Origin: a virus
Reading direction: 5' to 3' (one strand)
DNA: 64,000 nt
Virus record (IMG/VR): IMGVR_UViG_3300035696_000035
Coordinates: 1-64,000 of that record
The notes under the pieces were generated by a model. It ran no database searches and was not told the origin of the DNA. It saw only the letters and a program-made list of their open reading frames with translations. Below are positions 20,542-23,296 of this stretch, piece after piece. How positions within the stretch are numbered: the first letter of the stretch is position 1; every line of letters starts with the position of its first letter. Position numbers and translations under genes: made by a program.

Positions 20542-21263
20542 CCAAGATGCGGGCGGCCTGCAGGGCGGCGGCTCAGACCCTGCATCTGGCGGGCTCGATG
20601 CTGAAGCCCGGCATGACGACCAACGACATCGACCGGATCGTCCACAACGACACCGTCCGCCGTGGTGGCAAGCCCGCGCCCCTCAATTACCGTGGCTTCC
20701 CGAAGTCGTGCTGCACCTCGGTCAACGACGTGGTCTGCCACGGCATCCCGGACAAGACGGTGCTGAAGGAGGGGGACATCGTCGACATCGACGTGACGAC
20801 GATCCTGGACGGTCACTTCGGCGACTGCAACGCCACCTTCATGATCGGGCCGGTGAAGCCCGAGGTCGAGGCCTTCGTCGTCCGTGCCGCCGCAGCGATG
20901 TGGGCAGGCATCCACGCAGTGAAGCCAGGTGCCCGCCTCAATGACGTCGGTCGGGCCATCGAGGCCTACGCCACCAGGGAGGGCTTCAGCGTGGTCAGGG
21001 ACTTCGGTGGCCACGGCATCGGCCGCGTCTTCCACGACAGCAAGCTCCACGTCCACCACTTCGCCAACAACGACAACCGGGTGCTGGTCCCCGGCATGCT
21101 GTTCACCGTGGAGCCGATGCTCAACATGGGCAAGGCCGACTGCAGGATCGACATGGGGGACATGTGGACGGTGCGGACCGTCGACGGCTCCCTCAGCGCC
21201 CAGTTCGAGAACACGGTGCTGGTCACAGACGACGGCGTCGAAGTCCTGACGAGGATCGATTGA
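20538..21263 (+). CDS. map: methionine aminopeptidase, type I
   Basis: Trimmed to MTKMRAACRAAA (ATGA overlap); DIVDIDVT, CHGIP, FGGHGIG, FTVEPM pita-bread metal-ligand motifs. Confidence 0.85.
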   Translation: MTKMRAACRAAAQTLHLAGSMLKPGMTTNDIDRIVHNDTVRRGGKPAPLNYRGFPKSCCTSVNDVVCHGIPDKTVLKEGDIVDIDVTTILDGHFGDCNATFMIGPVKPEVEAFVVRAAAAMWAGIHAVKPGARLNDVGRAIEAYATREGFSVVRDFGGHGIGRVFHDSKLHVHHFANNDNRVLVPGMLFTVEPMLNMGKADCRIDMGDMWTVRTVDGSLSAQFENTVLVTDDGVEVLTRID

Positions 21264-21502
21264 GCCAGCTAGACGACTACCCGTTGACCGACCTGGACAC
21301 CCTGACGGGCGAGCCCATCGCCTCCGTCAAGCCTGGTGACTTCGTCAAGTACAGCAACGAGCCTTGGGACACCTTCGGCATCCTGATCGCACGGGTCCAC
21401 AACGCATCGTGGACGGGCGACCTGGCGATGGTGCTGTGGTCACAGGCTCCCAGAGCTCGTGTCAGCTCCAGGTCGAGCCGGGTCTGGGAGGAGGAACAGT
21501 GA
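21260..21502 (+). CDS. family-A paralog (VLWS subgroup)
   Basis: TTG start in TTGA overlap; VKPGDFVKY..GILIARV..MVLWSQAP. Confidence 0.45.
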   Translation: MSQLDDYPLTDLDTLTGEPIASVKPGDFVKYSNEPWDTFGILIARVHNASWTGDLAMVLWSQAPRARVSSRSSRVWEEEQ

Positions 21503-21882
21503 GCCAGCTGCGGACGTTCAACACCGGCGAGCTGTTTCCCATCGACCAGAACCAGGTCGCTCCGGGTTCCTTCGTCCGCCATGCTGACGACCACGACTCC
21601 TTCGGCATCGTGGTGAGCCAGGTCGGTGAGGAGTCCAGCGTGCTGTGGTCGAAGCAGCCTCTGATCATCCGCATCCAGAAGACCGACCTCTACGTGCCGC
21701 CCGTCCCCAGGAAGAGCCACGTCAACTTCGTTGAGAAGCCCGACTACATGTCCCCCGGCTTCGCCGAGATCGCCCACTACGAGCTGCAGGAGTCGTACGG
21801 CACCGGCGACCTGAGCGGTGAAGACGTCGAACAGATGACGGCGCGGGGAGACAAGGTCACCCTGTACCAGGACGTGGAGTAA
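21499..21882 (+). CDS. family-A paralog (VLWS subgroup)
   Basis: GTGA start; APGSFVRH..GIVVSQV..SVLWSKQP. Confidence 0.45.
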   Translation: MSQLRTFNTGELFPIDQNQVAPGSFVRHADDHDSFGIVVSQVGEESSVLWSKQPLIIRIQKTDLYVPPVPRKSHVNFVEKPDYMSPGFAEIAHYELQESYGTGDLSGEDVEQMTARGDKVTLYQDVE

Positions 21883-21905
21883 GATGGCCATGCCATGCAT
21901 TAGGC

Positions 21906-22208
21906 ATGATTCACCACACCATTCGTCCCGAAGACCAGTCGCGCCGTCAGGTGCAACGCCGGTTCCCGCCCGGCACCTTCATCATCGACTCCCGCGGCAC
22001 CCGCATGGCACTTGTCATCGGGTGGGGGCCGACGCAGTCCACGCTTCGACCCTCGGTCATCAACCCCGACCGCATGGTCGGGGAAGCACGTTCATGGATC
22101 GCCTACGTTGTCGAGGACTGCCGCATCCTGACCCTGCCCTGGACGAGCGTGCGGGACAGCTACAACCTCGAAGAGTGGGAGAAGCTCAACGATGAAGCTG
22201 GTGCATGA
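21906..22208 (+). CDS. family-A paralog
   Basis: PPGTFIIDS..MALVIGWG.. Confidence 0.45.
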   Translation: MIHHTIRPEDQSRRQVQRRFPPGTFIIDSRGTRMALVIGWGPTQSTLRPSVINPDRMVGEARSWIAYVVEDCRILTLPWTSVRDSYNLEEWEKLNDEAGA

Positions 22209-22557
22209 GACCAACGTCAACCTGCTGGTCCGCACCCATGGCACCGACATGGTCAACACGCCGTTGATGCCCGGCGACATGGTCAGGCACTGGCAGGACC
22301 GGGACAGCACCGGCATGGTCATCGCTGTCTCCCACGATGCTCGGGTTGCCCCCAACCTTGAAGCGCTGGTGCTGTGGTCCAAGCTGCCCTTCAAGGGGAA
22401 CTACCCGCCCCAGGATGCGATGCCATCAGCGGGACACTCGTTGAGCGCAAACGAAGAGCTCGAACAGATGCTGAAGCTGGTCGACCTGGGGGTCGTCAGC
22501 AAGAAGACGCTGATGGAGAAGTTCGGGCTCGACCCCAACGAGAGGCCCGACGAATGA
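22192..22557 (+). CDS. family-A paralog (VLWS subgroup)
   Basis: MPGDMVRHW..GMVIAVS..ALVLWSKLP. Confidence 0.45.
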   Translation: MKLVHETNVNLLVRTHGTDMVNTPLMPGDMVRHWQDRDSTGMVIAVSHDARVAPNLEALVLWSKLPFKGNYPPQDAMPSAGHSLSANEELEQMLKLVDLGVVSKKTLMEKFGLDPNERPDE

Positions 22558-22967
22558 GCCTGTTGCAGACCTACCGCGGGGGCATGTCGAAGGACATCAT
22601 CAGCCTTGAGAGCCAGTCGTACCGTGAGGGCGAGTGCACCCTCGCCATCAACATGCCCCCGGGCGAGTGGGTCAAACACCGTTGGTTCCACCTGCAACCG
22701 GGCTACGGCATCCTGGTCGCAGTGGGCAAGGAACCCAATCGCCTGCTGGTGGACGAAGACTTCGTCACGGTGTTGTGGTCGGTCGAACCCCGCATCGACC
22801 CGATGACACCCAGCATGGGCTTCGTCTATGCTCCCTACGTCCCGCTCCAAGTGACGAAGCTGACCCTCCCACCCGAGGACTTCGCCCCGCAGAAGGGCCT
22901 GCGCTACTACGCCAAGAAAGTGAAGTCCAGCTTCTACGGTACCATTGCTGTCTCGGACCTCAAGTGA
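22554..22967 (+). CDS. family-A paralog (VLWS subgroup)
   Basis: ATGA start MSLLQTYRGG; PPGEWVKH..GILVAVG..VTVLWSVEP. Confidence 0.45.
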   Translation: MSLLQTYRGGMSKDIISLESQSYREGECTLAINMPPGEWVKHRWFHLQPGYGILVAVGKEPNRLLVDEDFVTVLWSVEPRIDPMTPSMGFVYAPYVPLQVTKLTLPPEDFAPQKGLRYYAKKVKSSFYGTIAVSDLK

Positions 22968-23074
22968 GCGCGCTGAAGACGTACCAGCGGGAGTGGAGCG
23001 ACGGCGGCCCGAAGGAGGGCGACCCATGGCCTGTCATCCTGGTCGAGGGCTGCGGCGACGACAAGTGCTGAGTC

Positions 23075-23296
23075 ATGGCTCCCGGCAGCTGGGTCACCCA
23101 CGTCTCCCGCGGTGGCTTCGGCATGGTCGTCGCCCTGACGCCAGAACAGATGACGGTGTTGTGGAGCGACCAACCGCGGCACCCCGACCTGTTCCCGAAC
23201 CCGCCACGGGACAGGCAACCGCTTTCGATGCCAAAGGGCAGCGTCTTCTACCTCGACTACACCTACGGTGGCGAGACACCTGACAGTGTCAAATGA
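23075..23296 (+). CDS. family-A paralog (VLWS subgroup)
   Basis: MAPGSWVTH..GMVVAL..MTVLWSDQP. Confidence 0.45.
   Translation: MAPGSWVTHVSRGGFGMVVALTPEQMTVLWSDQPRHPDLFPNPPRDRQPLSMPKGSVFYLDYTYGGETPDSVK

What the first reader, a model, noticed from the sequence alone, without database searches (positions are those of the whole stretch)
21260..23296. Six-member head-to-tail array of the VLWS subgroup of family A
Consecutive genes at 21260, 21499, 21906, 22192, 22554 and 23075 all carry xPG[DS][FWM]V[KR]H early and [MVL]VLWS[QKDV].P late (MVLWSQAP, SVLWSKQP, ALVLWSKLP, VTVLWSVEP, MTVLWSDQP). The pattern fits recent serial duplication.

Junctions use TTGA, GTGA, ATGA or overlapping starts. Such arrays are hotspots of diversification, analogous to anti-defense gene arrays.
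Basis: seen in the sequence. Interest (0 to 1): 0.5.

Follow-up and report, generated by a model that had tools for sequence, protein, structure and literature searches.

The report
Small phage proteins carrying capsid-protein pieces
Five of the six genes belong to an old, conserved tandem array from an uncultivated giant phage, and they encode an undescribed family of small proteins whose tails are, in three of the five, short copies of segments of the phage's own T4-type major capsid protein, which points to a role in head assembly or in mimicking the capsid protein.

Summary
The array is real, but it has five members, not six. Genes g1 (21260), g2 (21499), g4 (22192), g5 (22554) and g6 (23075) share a roughly 40-80 aa N-terminal beta domain (PGxxVxH ... 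G[IM]V[IV]A ... VLWSxxP). Gene g3 (21906) is a conserved interloper.

The duplication is not recent:
- The paralogues are only 24-36% identical.
- They share no DNA repeats beyond the motif codons.
- Each has its own orthologue, in the same order after a methionine aminopeptidase gene, in related contigs. One of these is a 369-kb jumbo-phage contig that also encodes a normal gp23-like capsid protein.

The family has no Pfam, PHROG, NCBIfam or PADLOC match, no fold match, and no match in cultured phages. About 320 cluster representatives exist in metagenomes.

The new result concerns the variable tails, which are pieces of the T4-type major capsid protein (MCP):
- g5 carries the last ~50 residues of the MCP (E 2.5e-15).
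- g6 carries the QPM..P.G..FYLDYTYG segment, which lies in the region of T4 gp23 where the Gol element maps (E 5e-7).
- g2 carries a degenerate copy of a middle strand.

The tails are predicted to be disordered when alone. The most likely reading is that these are head-morphogenesis accessory proteins that dock by mimicking the capsid protein. An immune-decoy role is not excluded, and the mechanism is inferred, not shown.

The parts
20520..21263 (+). Methionine aminopeptidase gene. It is the conserved left anchor of the array, and its stop overlaps the g1 start (TTGA).
   Evidence: Pfam Peptidase_M24 at 3.6e-51. The same gene lies directly upstream of the array in L001, L003 and L251.
21260..21502 (+). 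g1, 80 aa, TTG start. It has the VLWS beta domain plus a short basic tail (RARVSSRSSRVWEEEQ). No capsid-derived piece is detectable.
   Evidence: HMM E 4e-26. Orthologues are P0008, P0009, P0013, P0079 and L251. dN/dS is 0.22 against L001. hhalign against the MCP finds nothing.
21499..21882 (+). g2, 127 aa, GTG start. It has the VLWS domain plus a tail. Residues 55-77 (nt 21661-21729, LIIRIQKTDLYVPPVPRKSHVNF) are a degenerate descendant of the MCP 'middle' strand. The distal tail contains EDVEQM..GDKVTLYQ.
   Evidence: hhalign of the g2 group against M-type family members: 99.5%, E 6e-23, full length. The chain of homology is: window g2 tail to L251 g2 tail, BLASTP E 3e-16; L251 tail to the M-type tail HMM, E 4e-10; M-type tails to MCP HMM positions 352-410, E 1e-7 to 2e-14. 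The direct comparison of g2 with the MCP is not significant.
21906..22208 (+). g3, 100 aa. It is not a VLWS member. It is a conserved syntenic gene inside the array (PPGTFIID...VIGW...LTLPW).
   Evidence: Not hit by the VLWS HMM. hhalign probability is 6-32%. Orthologues occupy the same position in L001, L003 and L251. It is 81% identical to the L001 orthologue, with dN/dS 0.23.
22192..22557 (+). g4, 121 aa. It has the VLWS domain plus a tail (…NEELEQMLKLVDLGVVSKKTLMEKFGLDPNERPDE). The origin of the tail is unknown.
   Evidence: HMM E 3e-26. Orthologues are P0004, P0007, P0010, P0012 and L251, at 53-61% identity. hhalign of the tail against the MCP finds nothing.
22554..22967 (+). g5, 137 aa. 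It has the VLWS domain (residues 1-~80). Its tail, residues 89-136 (nt 22818-22961, GFVYAPYVPLQVTKLTLPPEDFAPQKGLRYYAKKVKSSFYGTIAVSDL), is a copy of the C-terminal ~50 residues of a gp23-type major capsid protein.
   Evidence: An HMM of 84 full-length MCPs matches at positions 572-621 of 624, E 2.5e-15. BLASTP gives 46% identity to residues 492-539 of 544 of the MCP of uncultured phage LR756508, E 9e-11. hhalign gives 97.8%. There is a weak Pfam Gp23 hit at profile positions 316-343. AF2 gives residues 1-85 pLDDT ~90-97 and the tail pLDDT <50.
22964..23071 (+). A 35-aa ORF (GTG start overlapping the g5 stop). It is the detached N-terminus of g6 (MSALKTYQREWSDGGPKEGDPWPVILVEGCGDDKC) and ends at an in-frame TGA at 23069-23071.
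   Evidence: It is in the same frame as g6. It aligns with the N-termini of intact relatives P0027, P0024, P0020 and L251 g6, where the TGA position is a Cys codon. The 73-aa form (P0006) is present in JGI, Logan and ENA data.
23075..23296 (+). g6, 73 aa. It has the core of the VLWS domain. Its tail, residues 48-68 (nt 23216-23278, QPLSMPKGSVFYLDYTYGGET), is a copy of the N-terminal conserved segment of the gp23-type MCP, corresponding to T4 gp23 ~114-133.
   Evidence: MCP HMM positions 104-124, E 5e-7. hhalign gives 97.5%. Longer orthologues and relatives (P0015-P0020) match MCP HMM 77-127 at E 1e-10 to 1e-17 and Pfam Gp23 positions 3-49 above the gathering cut-off. P0018 residues 77-113 align with T4 gp23 residues 97-133.

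Best explanation
Shown here. The locus is an ancient, vertically inherited tandem array of five paralogous genes, plus one unrelated conserved gene, in an uncultivated high-GC jumbo phage with a T4-type capsid. The genes encode an undescribed protein family. Each member has a compact N-terminal beta domain of about 70-85 aa: strand 1 is MSxLxTY, followed by PGxWVxH, G.GMVVA and TVLWSxxP. Each member also has a paralogue-specific C-terminal tail. In most of the family the tail is a 20-55 aa copy of one element of the major capsid protein's P domain. In the window, g6 carries the N-arm/first-strand segment, g5 the C-terminal hairpin with the P loop, and g2 a degenerate copy of the middle strand. 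The genome also encodes a normal full-length capsid protein.

Inferred mechanism. The beta domain is a common handle. The tail is an intrinsically unfolded mimic of a capsid-protein segment. It docks by strand or helix mimicry onto the phage's own capsid protein, or onto factors that recognise those segments, such as neighbouring capsomers at the quasi-threefold contacts, the phage chaperonin, the scaffold or EF-Tu. On this reading the proteins act in head morphogenesis: they chaperone, nucleate, cap or tune capsid-protein folding and lattice assembly, or attach themselves to the shell. The short overlaps between genes suggest coupled, roughly stoichiometric expression.
For: Family and array:
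- HMM and alignment results support the five-member family.
- Only 20 relatives were found by word-indexed search. An exhaustive profile search found 320 representatives, nearly all 70-240 aa.
- There is no Pfam, PHROG, NCBIfam or PADLOC family.

Age and constraint:
- Orthologue groups are resolved.
- Synteny holds in L001, L003, L129, L191 and L251.
- dN/dS is 0.22-0.46 for whole genes and 0.33-0.41 for tails.
- There are no long DNA repeats.

Capsid-derived tails:
- In the census, 133 of 163 members carry a piece: 114 N-type, 7 M-type, 14 C-type and two double types. A fourth type corresponding to the spine helix is supported at 72% probability, E 3e-5.
- 18 of 40 long N-types end with LVEKW..GL, the motif of the MCP N-terminal propeptide.
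- A full MCP and the array lie on contigs of identical length, 369,475 bp, from the same IMG data set (L146 and L251).

Fold-on-binding:
- AF2 gives the beta domain pLDDT 87-97, but the capsid-derived tails are coil with pLDDT <50 in g5 and 62-77 in P0020.

Relevance of the pieces in T4 (PMC9546572):
- The short P helix, P-domain strands and P loop make the inter-capsomer contacts.
- Head-length mutations map to 268-287 and 457-461.
- gp31-bypass mutations map to A455 and the spine helix.
- The window itself encodes a Cpn60 chaperonin.
Against: - No experiment or co-folding was possible, so docking is inferred only.
- The array lies among non-structural, early-looking small genes (MetAP, AAA ATPase, endonuclease VII). 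No VLWS gene lies within about 6 kb of the MCP gene in 120 MCP loci, about 1 Mb in total.
- The pieces evolve much faster than the MCP itself. They are 46-64% identical to MCPs, which are ~92% identical to each other in that window, and the same-genome MCP is no closer than others. There is therefore no sign of co-evolution with the cognate MCP.
- g1 and g4 have no detectable capsid piece.
- C-type and M-type members are missing from several related arrays, so a fixed N+M+C complex cannot be general.
- In the window g6 is split by a stop codon and has lost half of its capsid piece.
Confidence: 0.42

Rival explanations
1. Immune decoys or anti-defence proteins. The tails copy the most conserved linear segments of the capsid protein, which are the ones host abortive-infection sensors are expected to recognise. 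Early-made carrier proteins displaying them would titrate or pre-empt capsid-sensing defences, or sequester the host factor that presents them, such as EF-Tu.
For: - The N-type piece is the most conserved MCP segment and lies in the first quarter of gp23. That is where the Gol element, which binds EF-Tu and licenses the Lit protease, maps (review PMC3014915; alignment to T4 gp23 97-133).
- Capsid proteins are recurrent triggers of defence systems (PMC9712102).
- The array sits among small non-structural genes rather than in the head module.
- The pieces are unfolded linear motifs on a carrier.
- Member content varies between relatives.
Against: - A displayed trigger would be expected to activate a sensor, not block it.
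- No known anti-defence family matches, and no anti-defence library was available.
- The exact Gol coordinates are from memory and were not verified here.
- Long N-types also carry an MCP propeptide-like motif and an amphipathic helix or TM anchor. These fit assembly better than decoy function.
- The host and its defences are unknown.
Confidence: 0.2
2. Virion cargo or decoration proteins. The capsid-derived tail is a targeting tag, analogous to encapsulin cargo peptides or the T4 capsid-targeting sequence. It loads the beta domain into the head or fixes it onto the head, so that the array encodes a set of packaged or surface proteins.
For: - The tail is a terminal, disordered peptide on a folded domain.
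- Long N-types carry a cationic W/R-rich helix and an MCP propeptide-like LVEKW motif.
- It is a tandem array of small divergent proteins with a shared N-terminus, like the T4 internal-protein loci (own knowledge).
Against: - The shared N-terminus is strand 1 of the folded domain, not a free leader.
- The array is not linked to head genes.
Confidence: 0.15
3. Gene debris. The tails are neutral leftovers of illegitimate recombination between multicopy VLWS genes and a capsid-gene copy, perhaps one fragmented MCP paralogue, and have no function of their own.
For: - A chimera between paralogues exists (P0011).
- The order of pieces along arrays (M, S, C, N) is collinear with the MCP up to a rotation.
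- In the window g6 is interrupted and g2's piece is degenerate.
Against: - The pieces are retained in 133 of 163 diverged members, with QPM..P.G..F nearly invariant.
- Tail dN/dS is 0.33-0.41.
- The same piece types recur across contigs with GC from 52 to 62%.
Confidence: 0.1
4. One reading: a recently and serially duplicated six-gene array that is diversifying rapidly.
For: The genes are arranged head to tail with overlapping stops and starts and share motifs.
Against: - The paralogues are 24-36% identical.
- Each paralogue has its own orthologues, in conserved order, in distant contigs.
- There are no DNA-level repeats.
- The sixth gene is not a member.
Confidence: 0.03

Closest known systems
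T4-type major capsid protein gp23 (Pfam PF07068, HK97 fold)
   Same: The tails of g5, g6 and most family members are significantly similar to defined gp23-type segments. The N-type piece corresponds to T4 gp23 ~97-133, the M-type to ~255-290, the S-type to the spine helix, and the C-type to ~447-521.
   Different: Each protein carries only one short piece, rarely two. There is no A domain, insertion domain or complete P domain. The pieces are predicted to be unfolded. The genome has a separate full-length MCP.
Gol element of T4 gp23 (Gol-Lit-EF-Tu exclusion system)
   Same: The N-type piece lies in the same, most conserved, first-quarter region of the capsid protein that defines Gol.
   Different: Gol is part of the capsid protein itself and is a trigger of host suicide. 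Here the segment is displayed on a separate small phage protein. EF-Tu binding and sensing were not tested, and the exact Gol coordinates were not verified.
T4 internal-protein loci (IPI/II/III and polymorphic IP arrays with an N-terminal capsid-targeting sequence)
   Same: These are tandem arrays of small, divergent phage proteins that share an N-terminal element. Their content varies between relatives and they have a capsid-related logic.
   Different: Here the shared element is a folded ~75-aa beta domain, not a 10-aa cleavable leader. The capsid-related part is C-terminal and derived from the MCP. There is no sequence similarity.
Terminal docking peptides for HK97-fold shells (encapsulin cargo-loading peptides; the C-terminal shell-binding motif of P22-type scaffolding proteins)
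   Same: This is a comparison of mechanism only: a short, disordered terminal peptide that would bind the shell protein.
   Different: Those peptides are not derived from the shell protein. No homology exists and binding was not shown here.
DUF3553 (PF12073) and Tudor/SH3-like small beta-barrels
   Same: There is a PGxxVxH...G.G.V pattern, and a weak hit of P0019 residues 32-61 (E 0.0098).

Membership tests
Gp23 major capsid protein family (PF07068) | A match to the family profile above the gathering score, over most of the ~376-position HK97-fold profile. | tested here: not met
   g5 scores 16.3 bits against a 24.4 cut-off, over profile positions 316-343 only. g6 has no hit. Relatives P0016-P0020 pass the score (30-47 bits) but cover only positions 3-61 of 376. 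They contain fragments of the family and are not capsid proteins.
Gp23 major capsid protein family (PF07068) | Length and domain content of a capsid subunit (about 450-680 aa, with A, P and insertion domains). | tested here: not met
   The array proteins are 73-137 aa. AF2 shows one small beta domain plus a disordered tail. Full MCPs of the clade are about 630-680 aa.
T4-type internal proteins with capsid-targeting sequence | A short, free N-terminal leader removed by the prohead protease. | tested here: not met
   The conserved N-terminus MSxLxTY is predicted as beta strand 1 of the folded domain, with pLDDT >90. Cleavage cannot be tested with these tools.
DUF3553 (PF12073) | Profile match above the gathering score. 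| tested here: not met
   Only P0019 gives a hit, at 15.9 bits against a 20.3 cut-off, E 0.0098. None of the six window proteins gives a hit.
Known capsid decoration proteins (Soc, Hoc, gpD-like, Dec) | Sequence or fold similarity to a solved decoration protein. | tested here: not met
Known defence-system proteins (PADLOC) and NCBIfam families | Profile match. | tested here: not met
   There are no hits apart from chance-level ones (DrmA E 0.026; LexA E 0.15).
   No anti-defence library or assay was available. PHROGs gave no annotated family.
VLWS family defined here | An N-terminal beta domain with PGxxV[xH], G[IM][VI][VI][AS] and [VIL][VL]W[ST]xxP in that order. | tested here: met
   Met by g1, g2, g4, g5 and g6 (HMM E 1e-12 to 1e-18 with the 163-sequence model). 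Not met by g3.

The most novel reading that the evidence does not exclude
The array encodes a set of trans-acting mimics of the capsid protein's P domain. Each mimic is a carrier domain displaying one strand or helix of the surface that builds inter-capsomer contacts and determines chaperonin dependence. The phage would use them either to steer folding, lattice geometry and head size of a jumbo T4-type capsid, or as decoys that blind host immunity to the conserved capsid epitopes, including the Gol-equivalent segment. Either would be a previously unknown strategy: a virus redeploying peptide fragments of its own capsid protein on separate small proteins.
Probability: 0.3. Interest if true: 0.85.

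Novelty: new variant of a known kind. Interest (0 to 1): 0.64.

Why it matters
Tandem arrays of small paralogous genes are common in large phages and are usually left as 'hypothetical'. Here the paralogues turn out to be built on one plan, a carrier domain plus a copied fragment of the phage's own major capsid protein. The fragments are exactly the P-domain elements that, in T4, make inter-capsomer contacts, set head length, determine dependence on the GroEL/gp31 chaperonin, and overlap the region sensed by the Lit abortive-infection system.

If the tails dock onto the capsid protein or its handlers, this is a new class of morphogenetic factor for very large capsids. If they act on host sensors, it is a new kind of anti-defence decoy.

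Both ideas can be tested directly with recombinant proteins and T4-type model phages. The family (about 320 cluster representatives) gives a defined target for structure prediction of complexes.

Tried and rejected
- Near-identity DNA search of 12 kb of the window, and tblastn of g4, against 50,697 phage records found nothing. tblastn of the N-type relative P0023 hit only MCP genes, through the capsid-derived piece. An apparent extension into the beta domain in phage XacN1 proved to be spurious.
- Pfam, PHROGs, PADLOC and NCBIfam give no family for the domain.
- The search for related loci with the family alignment failed because there was no conserved stretch.
- A chimeric N+C fragment query to the word-indexed protein search returned only 2 proteins and wasted one search.
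- The idea that the conserved MSxLKTY N-terminus is a T4-like capsid-targeting leader was rejected, because AF2 places it as strand 1 of the domain.
- The idea that g1 and g4 tails are also capsid-derived (g1 SKLNRLWSEE against RKLRARWSPE; g4 AEVTL or LMEKF against the spine helix or propeptide) was not supported by HMM or hhalign. It is left open.
- The direct comparison of g2 with the MCP is not significant. Only the transitive chain holds.
- The test for co-evolution of the N piece with the same-genome MCP was negative or uninformative, because MCPs are ~92% identical in that window.
- The promoter and terminator scan of 18-25.5 kb found nothing above background.
- The rest of the 72-kb source contig could not be retrieved. 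No full-length MCP lies in the window.
- The exact Gol coordinates could not be verified in the held literature.
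Full report
**1. The observation**

The region 21260-23296 holds six co-directional ORFs with high third-position GC. They are g1 21260-21502 (TTG start), g2 21499-21882 (GTG), g3 21906-22208, g4 22192-22557, g5 22554-22967 and g6 23075-23296.

TTGA joins the upstream methionine aminopeptidase gene to g1, GTGA joins g1 to g2, and ATGA joins g4 to g5. g3 and g4 overlap by 17 nt.

Five of the six align over a common core, not only at the two motifs. Invariant columns are P, G, V, G, V, L, W, S and P, and pairwise identity is 24-36%. An HMM built from the five recovers them (its own training sequences) at E 1e-19 to 3e-26 among 953 six-frame ORFs of the window, and the next ORF scores 6e-4.

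g3 lacks VLWS and is not found by that HMM or by a 163-sequence HMM. In profile-profile comparison it reaches only 6-32% probability, over the PGxF...G.V half. The array therefore has five members and one interloper.

**2. The source is a jumbo phage and the family is undescribed**

The window is 61% GC and is full of short genes. It also encodes:
- phage-type endolysin, exonuclease and endonuclease VII;
- a Cpn60 chaperonin;
- a major-vault-protein homologue;
- an SPFH protein and AAA ATPases.

It matches no cultured phage at the DNA level, and g4 has no tblastn hit.

The five proteins have no Pfam, PHROG, NCBIfam or PADLOC family. A word-indexed search of 5.8 billion proteins found only 20 relatives, all metagenomic. 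An exhaustive profile search of 1.84 billion cluster representatives found 320 at E ≤ 1e-3 and 65 at E ≤ 1e-10. Nearly all are 70-240 aa.

**3. The duplication is old**

- DNA repeats inside the array are 14-33 nt long and sit on the codons of the conserved motifs.
- In a neighbour-joining tree of the core, each window paralogue groups with proteins from other contigs rather than with its neighbours.
- Related contigs carry the same genes in the same order:
  - L001 has MetAP, one extra gene, g1, g2, g3, g4, an unrelated gene in place of g5, then g6.
  - L251, from a 369,475-bp IMG/VR contig, has MetAP, g1, g2, one extra gene, g3, g4, g5 and an intact 202-aa g6, followed by the same downstream gene as in the window.
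  - L003, L002, L129 and L191 carry more divergent arrays of 3 to about 7 members. L003 and L129 also share flanking genes with the window: Band_7/AAA/MetAP in L003 and a vault-protein homologue in L129 upstream, and a metallophosphatase and an eIF-1a-like gene downstream.
- Between the window and L001, the array genes are 59-81% identical with dN/dS 0.22-0.46. MetAP is 82% identical with dN/dS 0.29.

The genes are therefore real, constrained and old. What varies between relatives is member number, one replacement, one chimera (P0011 has a g4-type N-terminus joined to a g6-type C-terminus) and the tails.

**4. Structure prediction**

AlphaFold2 models the first ~85 residues of g5 at pLDDT about 90-97, as a small beta domain whose first strand is the conserved N-terminus LLQTYR. 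The tail has pLDDT <50.

For the longer relative P0020, with a 114-sequence alignment, the model shows:
- the domain (residues 1-70) at pLDDT 87-97;
- the following 45 residues as coil at pLDDT 62-77;
- a long amphipathic W/R-rich helix (127-158);
- a short C-terminal helix (179-191).

**5. The tails are pieces of the major capsid protein**

The first clue was a weak Pfam Gp23 hit in g5, together with Gp23 hits above the gathering score in the distant relatives P0016-P0020. Those hits cover only profile positions 3-61 of 376.

P0018 residues 77-113 align with T4 gp23 residues 97-133, MVRRAIPNLIAFDICGVQPMNSPTGQVFALRAVYG.

A back-translated QPM..P.G..FY.DY.YG pattern retrieved 120 IMG/VR loci. 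All are full-length gp23-like capsid genes of about 630-680 aa.

An HMM of 84 of them (624 positions) gives these matches:

| Protein | Residues | MCP HMM positions | E-value |
|---|---|---|---|
| g5 | 89-136 | 572-621 | 2.5e-15 |
| g6 | 48-68 | 104-124 | 5e-7 |
| L001 g6 orthologue | – | 102-124 | 6e-10 |
| P0016, P0020 | – | 77-127 | about 1e-17 |

BLASTP of g5 against the capsid protein of uncultured phage LR756508 gives 46% identity to residues 492-539 of 544, E 9e-11. P0021 gives 46% identity to residues 70-126, E 5e-15. hhalign gives 97.5-97.8% for g5 and g6 against the capsid alignment, and nothing for g1, g2 or g4.

g2 is linked to the capsid protein only transitively:
- Its group aligns full-length with 'M-type' members (99.5%, E 6e-23).
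- Its tail is 36% identical (E 3e-16) to the tail of the L251 orthologue.
- That L251 tail matches the M-type tail HMM from its first residue (E 4e-10).
- M-type tails match capsid HMM positions 352-410 (E 1e-7 to 2e-14).

The window's g2 segment LIIRIQKTDLYVPPVPRKSHVNF is thus a degenerate copy.

**6. Family-wide census**

| Type | Members | MCP HMM positions |
|---|---|---|
| N | 114 | ~75-130 |
| M | 7 | 352-410 |
| C | 14 | 563-621 |

- Two proteins carry two pieces each.
- A fourth type, found in L191, L003 and L002, matches the spine helix at 72% probability, E 3e-5.
- 18 of 40 long N-types end in LVEKW..GL, the motif of the capsid propeptide (consensus RLVEKWsRTGLL). The chance expectation is below 1 in 40.
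- Two members end in a transmembrane helix.
- Along the arrays the order is M, (g4-type), S, C, N in L191, L251, L129 and the window. This is the order in the capsid protein rotated by one. These loci are related by descent, so I treat the order as an observation, not a test.
- The same 369,475-bp contig also yields a normal capsid gene (L146, HMM positions 1-300, E 3e-115). The pieces are therefore extra copies and not a split capsid gene.
- No VLWS gene lies in about 1 Mb of capsid-gene flanks, and no full-length capsid gene lies in the window.
- In the 39-residue N window, capsid proteins are ~92% identical to each other. The small proteins are 46-64% identical to capsid proteins and ~51% identical to each other, and the same-genome capsid protein is no closer than others.
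- QPM..P.G..F is nearly invariant in the small proteins, and tail dN/dS is 0.33-0.41.

**7. What the pieces are in T4**

My recalled T4 gp23 sequence agrees with every residue named in PMC9546572: M98, H282, M284, M444, A455, T457, R460 and G461.

According to that paper:
- Residues 66-105 form the N-arm.
- The insertion-domain linkers are the E-loop equivalent.
- The short negatively charged P helix and the P-domain strands and P loops make the inter-capsomer contacts at the quasi-threefold axes.
- Head-length mutations lie at 268-287 and 457-461.
- gp31-bypass mutations lie at A455 and in the spine helix (292, 306, 307).

The pieces map onto these elements as follows:

| Piece | T4 gp23 residues | Elements |
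|---|---|---|
| N | ~97-133 | N-arm end, first P strand, linker 1 |
| M | ~255-290 | linker 2 strand, short P helix |
| S | – | spine helix |
| C | 447-521 | P hairpin, P loop, C-terminus |

All four are P-domain elements.

The review PMC3014915 states that the 29-residue Gol element lies in the first quarter of gp23, is the most conserved part of gp23, binds EF-Tu domains II/III and licenses the Lit protease. That fits the N piece. The exact Gol coordinates (about 93-122) come from my memory and were not verified.

**8. Interpretation**

Shown:
- a new family;
- an old conserved array;
- capsid-derived tails under constraint;
- tails predicted to be unfolded when alone;
- a separate full-length capsid gene in the same genome.

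Inferred: the tails work by mimicry of capsid-protein segments.

I rank the readings as follows:
- **Head morphogenesis, 0.42.** The proteins would dock on the capsid protein, on capsomer edges, or on the chaperonin or scaffold. All pieces come from the one domain that governs inter-capsomer contacts, head length and chaperonin dependence. Long members add a propeptide-like motif and membrane-active or anchoring helices. The phage encodes its own Cpn60.
- **Immune decoy, 0.20.** This fits the non-structural neighbourhood and the Gol parallel. It needs an explanation of why a displayed trigger would not itself activate the sensor.
- **Packaged or decoration proteins targeted by the tail, 0.15.**
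- **Neutral debris, 0.10.**
- **Recent serial duplication, 0.03.** This is refuted.

**9. Comparison and novelty**

The proteins contain fragments of PF07068 but fail its membership tests on coverage, length and fold. They are not T4-type internal proteins, because there is no free leader. They are not known decoration proteins or known defence proteins.

I found no description of small phage proteins that display fragments of their own capsid protein (paper searches). The held library is incomplete.

I file the locus as a new variant of a known kind: tandem arrays of small paralogous accessory genes in large phages. The architecture itself has no precedent that I could find.

**10. Caveats**

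- No complex prediction, expression data or proteomics were available.
- The S-type assignment and the g2 link are weaker than those for N and C.
- The census rests on the best 150 of 320 hits plus the first 20.
- The identity of L146 and L251 as one contig rests on identical length and IMG data set.
- The window's own g6 is truncated by an in-frame stop and retains only half of the N piece.

Noticed in passing
window 13020-16193 (+), 16275-18194 (+), 18622-19902 (+): A 1058-aa protein carries major-vault-protein domains (MVP_shoulder 7e-29, Vault_3, Vault repeat). It is followed by a 640-aa SPFH/Band_7 protein and an AAA ATPase. MVP also lies upstream of the array in L129, and Band_7 plus AAA in L003. 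Cage-forming eukaryote-type proteins in a jumbo phage are unusual and may mark an intracellular compartment.
   Followed up: partly
window 23069-23071 (and ORF 22964-23071): An in-frame TGA splits g6 into a 35-aa N-terminal ORF and the 73-aa gene. In intact relatives (P0027, P0024, P0020, L251) the aligned position is a Cys in a CGDxxC(C) motif. The 73-aa form (P0006) is present in JGI, Logan and ENA data. It could be a nonsense split with re-initiation 3 nt downstream, or UGA read-through.
   Followed up: partly
P0011 (ENA 640-nt contig): This is a natural chimera. A g4-type N-terminus and domain are joined after NYPPAP to the g6-type end IFYLDYQYGSGS. It is evidence of recombination or deletion between array members.
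   Followed up: partly
window 39240-39503 (-), 52377-52823 (-), 11750-12175 (+), 3042-3371 (-): These ORFs are weak relatives of the VLWS domain (E 2e-5 to 2e-3 with the 163-sequence HMM). The window also holds many other ~90-110-aa genes that start with PGDxV and end with GW..., for example at 3290-3607(-), 8088-8420(-), 10172-10833(+), 11670-11942(+) and 38159-39267.
   Followed up: partly
L002/L003/L191/L251 N-type proteins; P0050, P0110: Long N-type members carry several extra elements after the capsid piece: a conserved KRCxxGPW motif, a 30-residue amphipathic W/R/S-rich helix (pLDDT up to 94), and often a C-terminal LVEKW..GL motif identical to the capsid propeptide motif. Two representatives end instead in a transmembrane helix. 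This suggests association with the membrane or the scaffold.
   Followed up: partly
arrays in window, L251, L191, L129: The capsid pieces occur along the arrays in the order M, spine helix, C, N. This is the order in the capsid protein rotated by one. It could mean the array arose from one fragmented capsid-gene copy.
   Followed up: partly
window 21820-21852 and 22453-22485: The tails of g2 and g4 share a short E[DE][VL]EQM motif (33-nt direct repeat, 73% identity). The same element (ELEE[IL], EEVQKL) recurs in the distal tails of M-type relatives. Its role is unknown.
   Followed up: no
window 39994-41631 (-) and 41665-41964 (-): A Cpn60/GroEL-type chaperonin (Pfam 1e-70) has a 99-aa ORF directly upstream on the same strand that might be its co-chaperonin. 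This was not tested. It is relevant because T4 gp23 folding depends on GroEL and gp31.
   Followed up: no
window 58884-59849 (-): A 322-aa protein matches a PHROG annotated as transposase (4e-23), which suggests a mobile element inside the phage genome.
   Followed up: no
L003 7768-8118, L002 1762-2133, L129 8737-9069, L251 7657-8073: A conserved non-VLWS gene (…PGQLWQWxF…VWFEHxWLEQ…) sits inside the array in four relatives. It is absent from the window, where only a 23-nt gap separates g2 from g3.
   Followed up: partly
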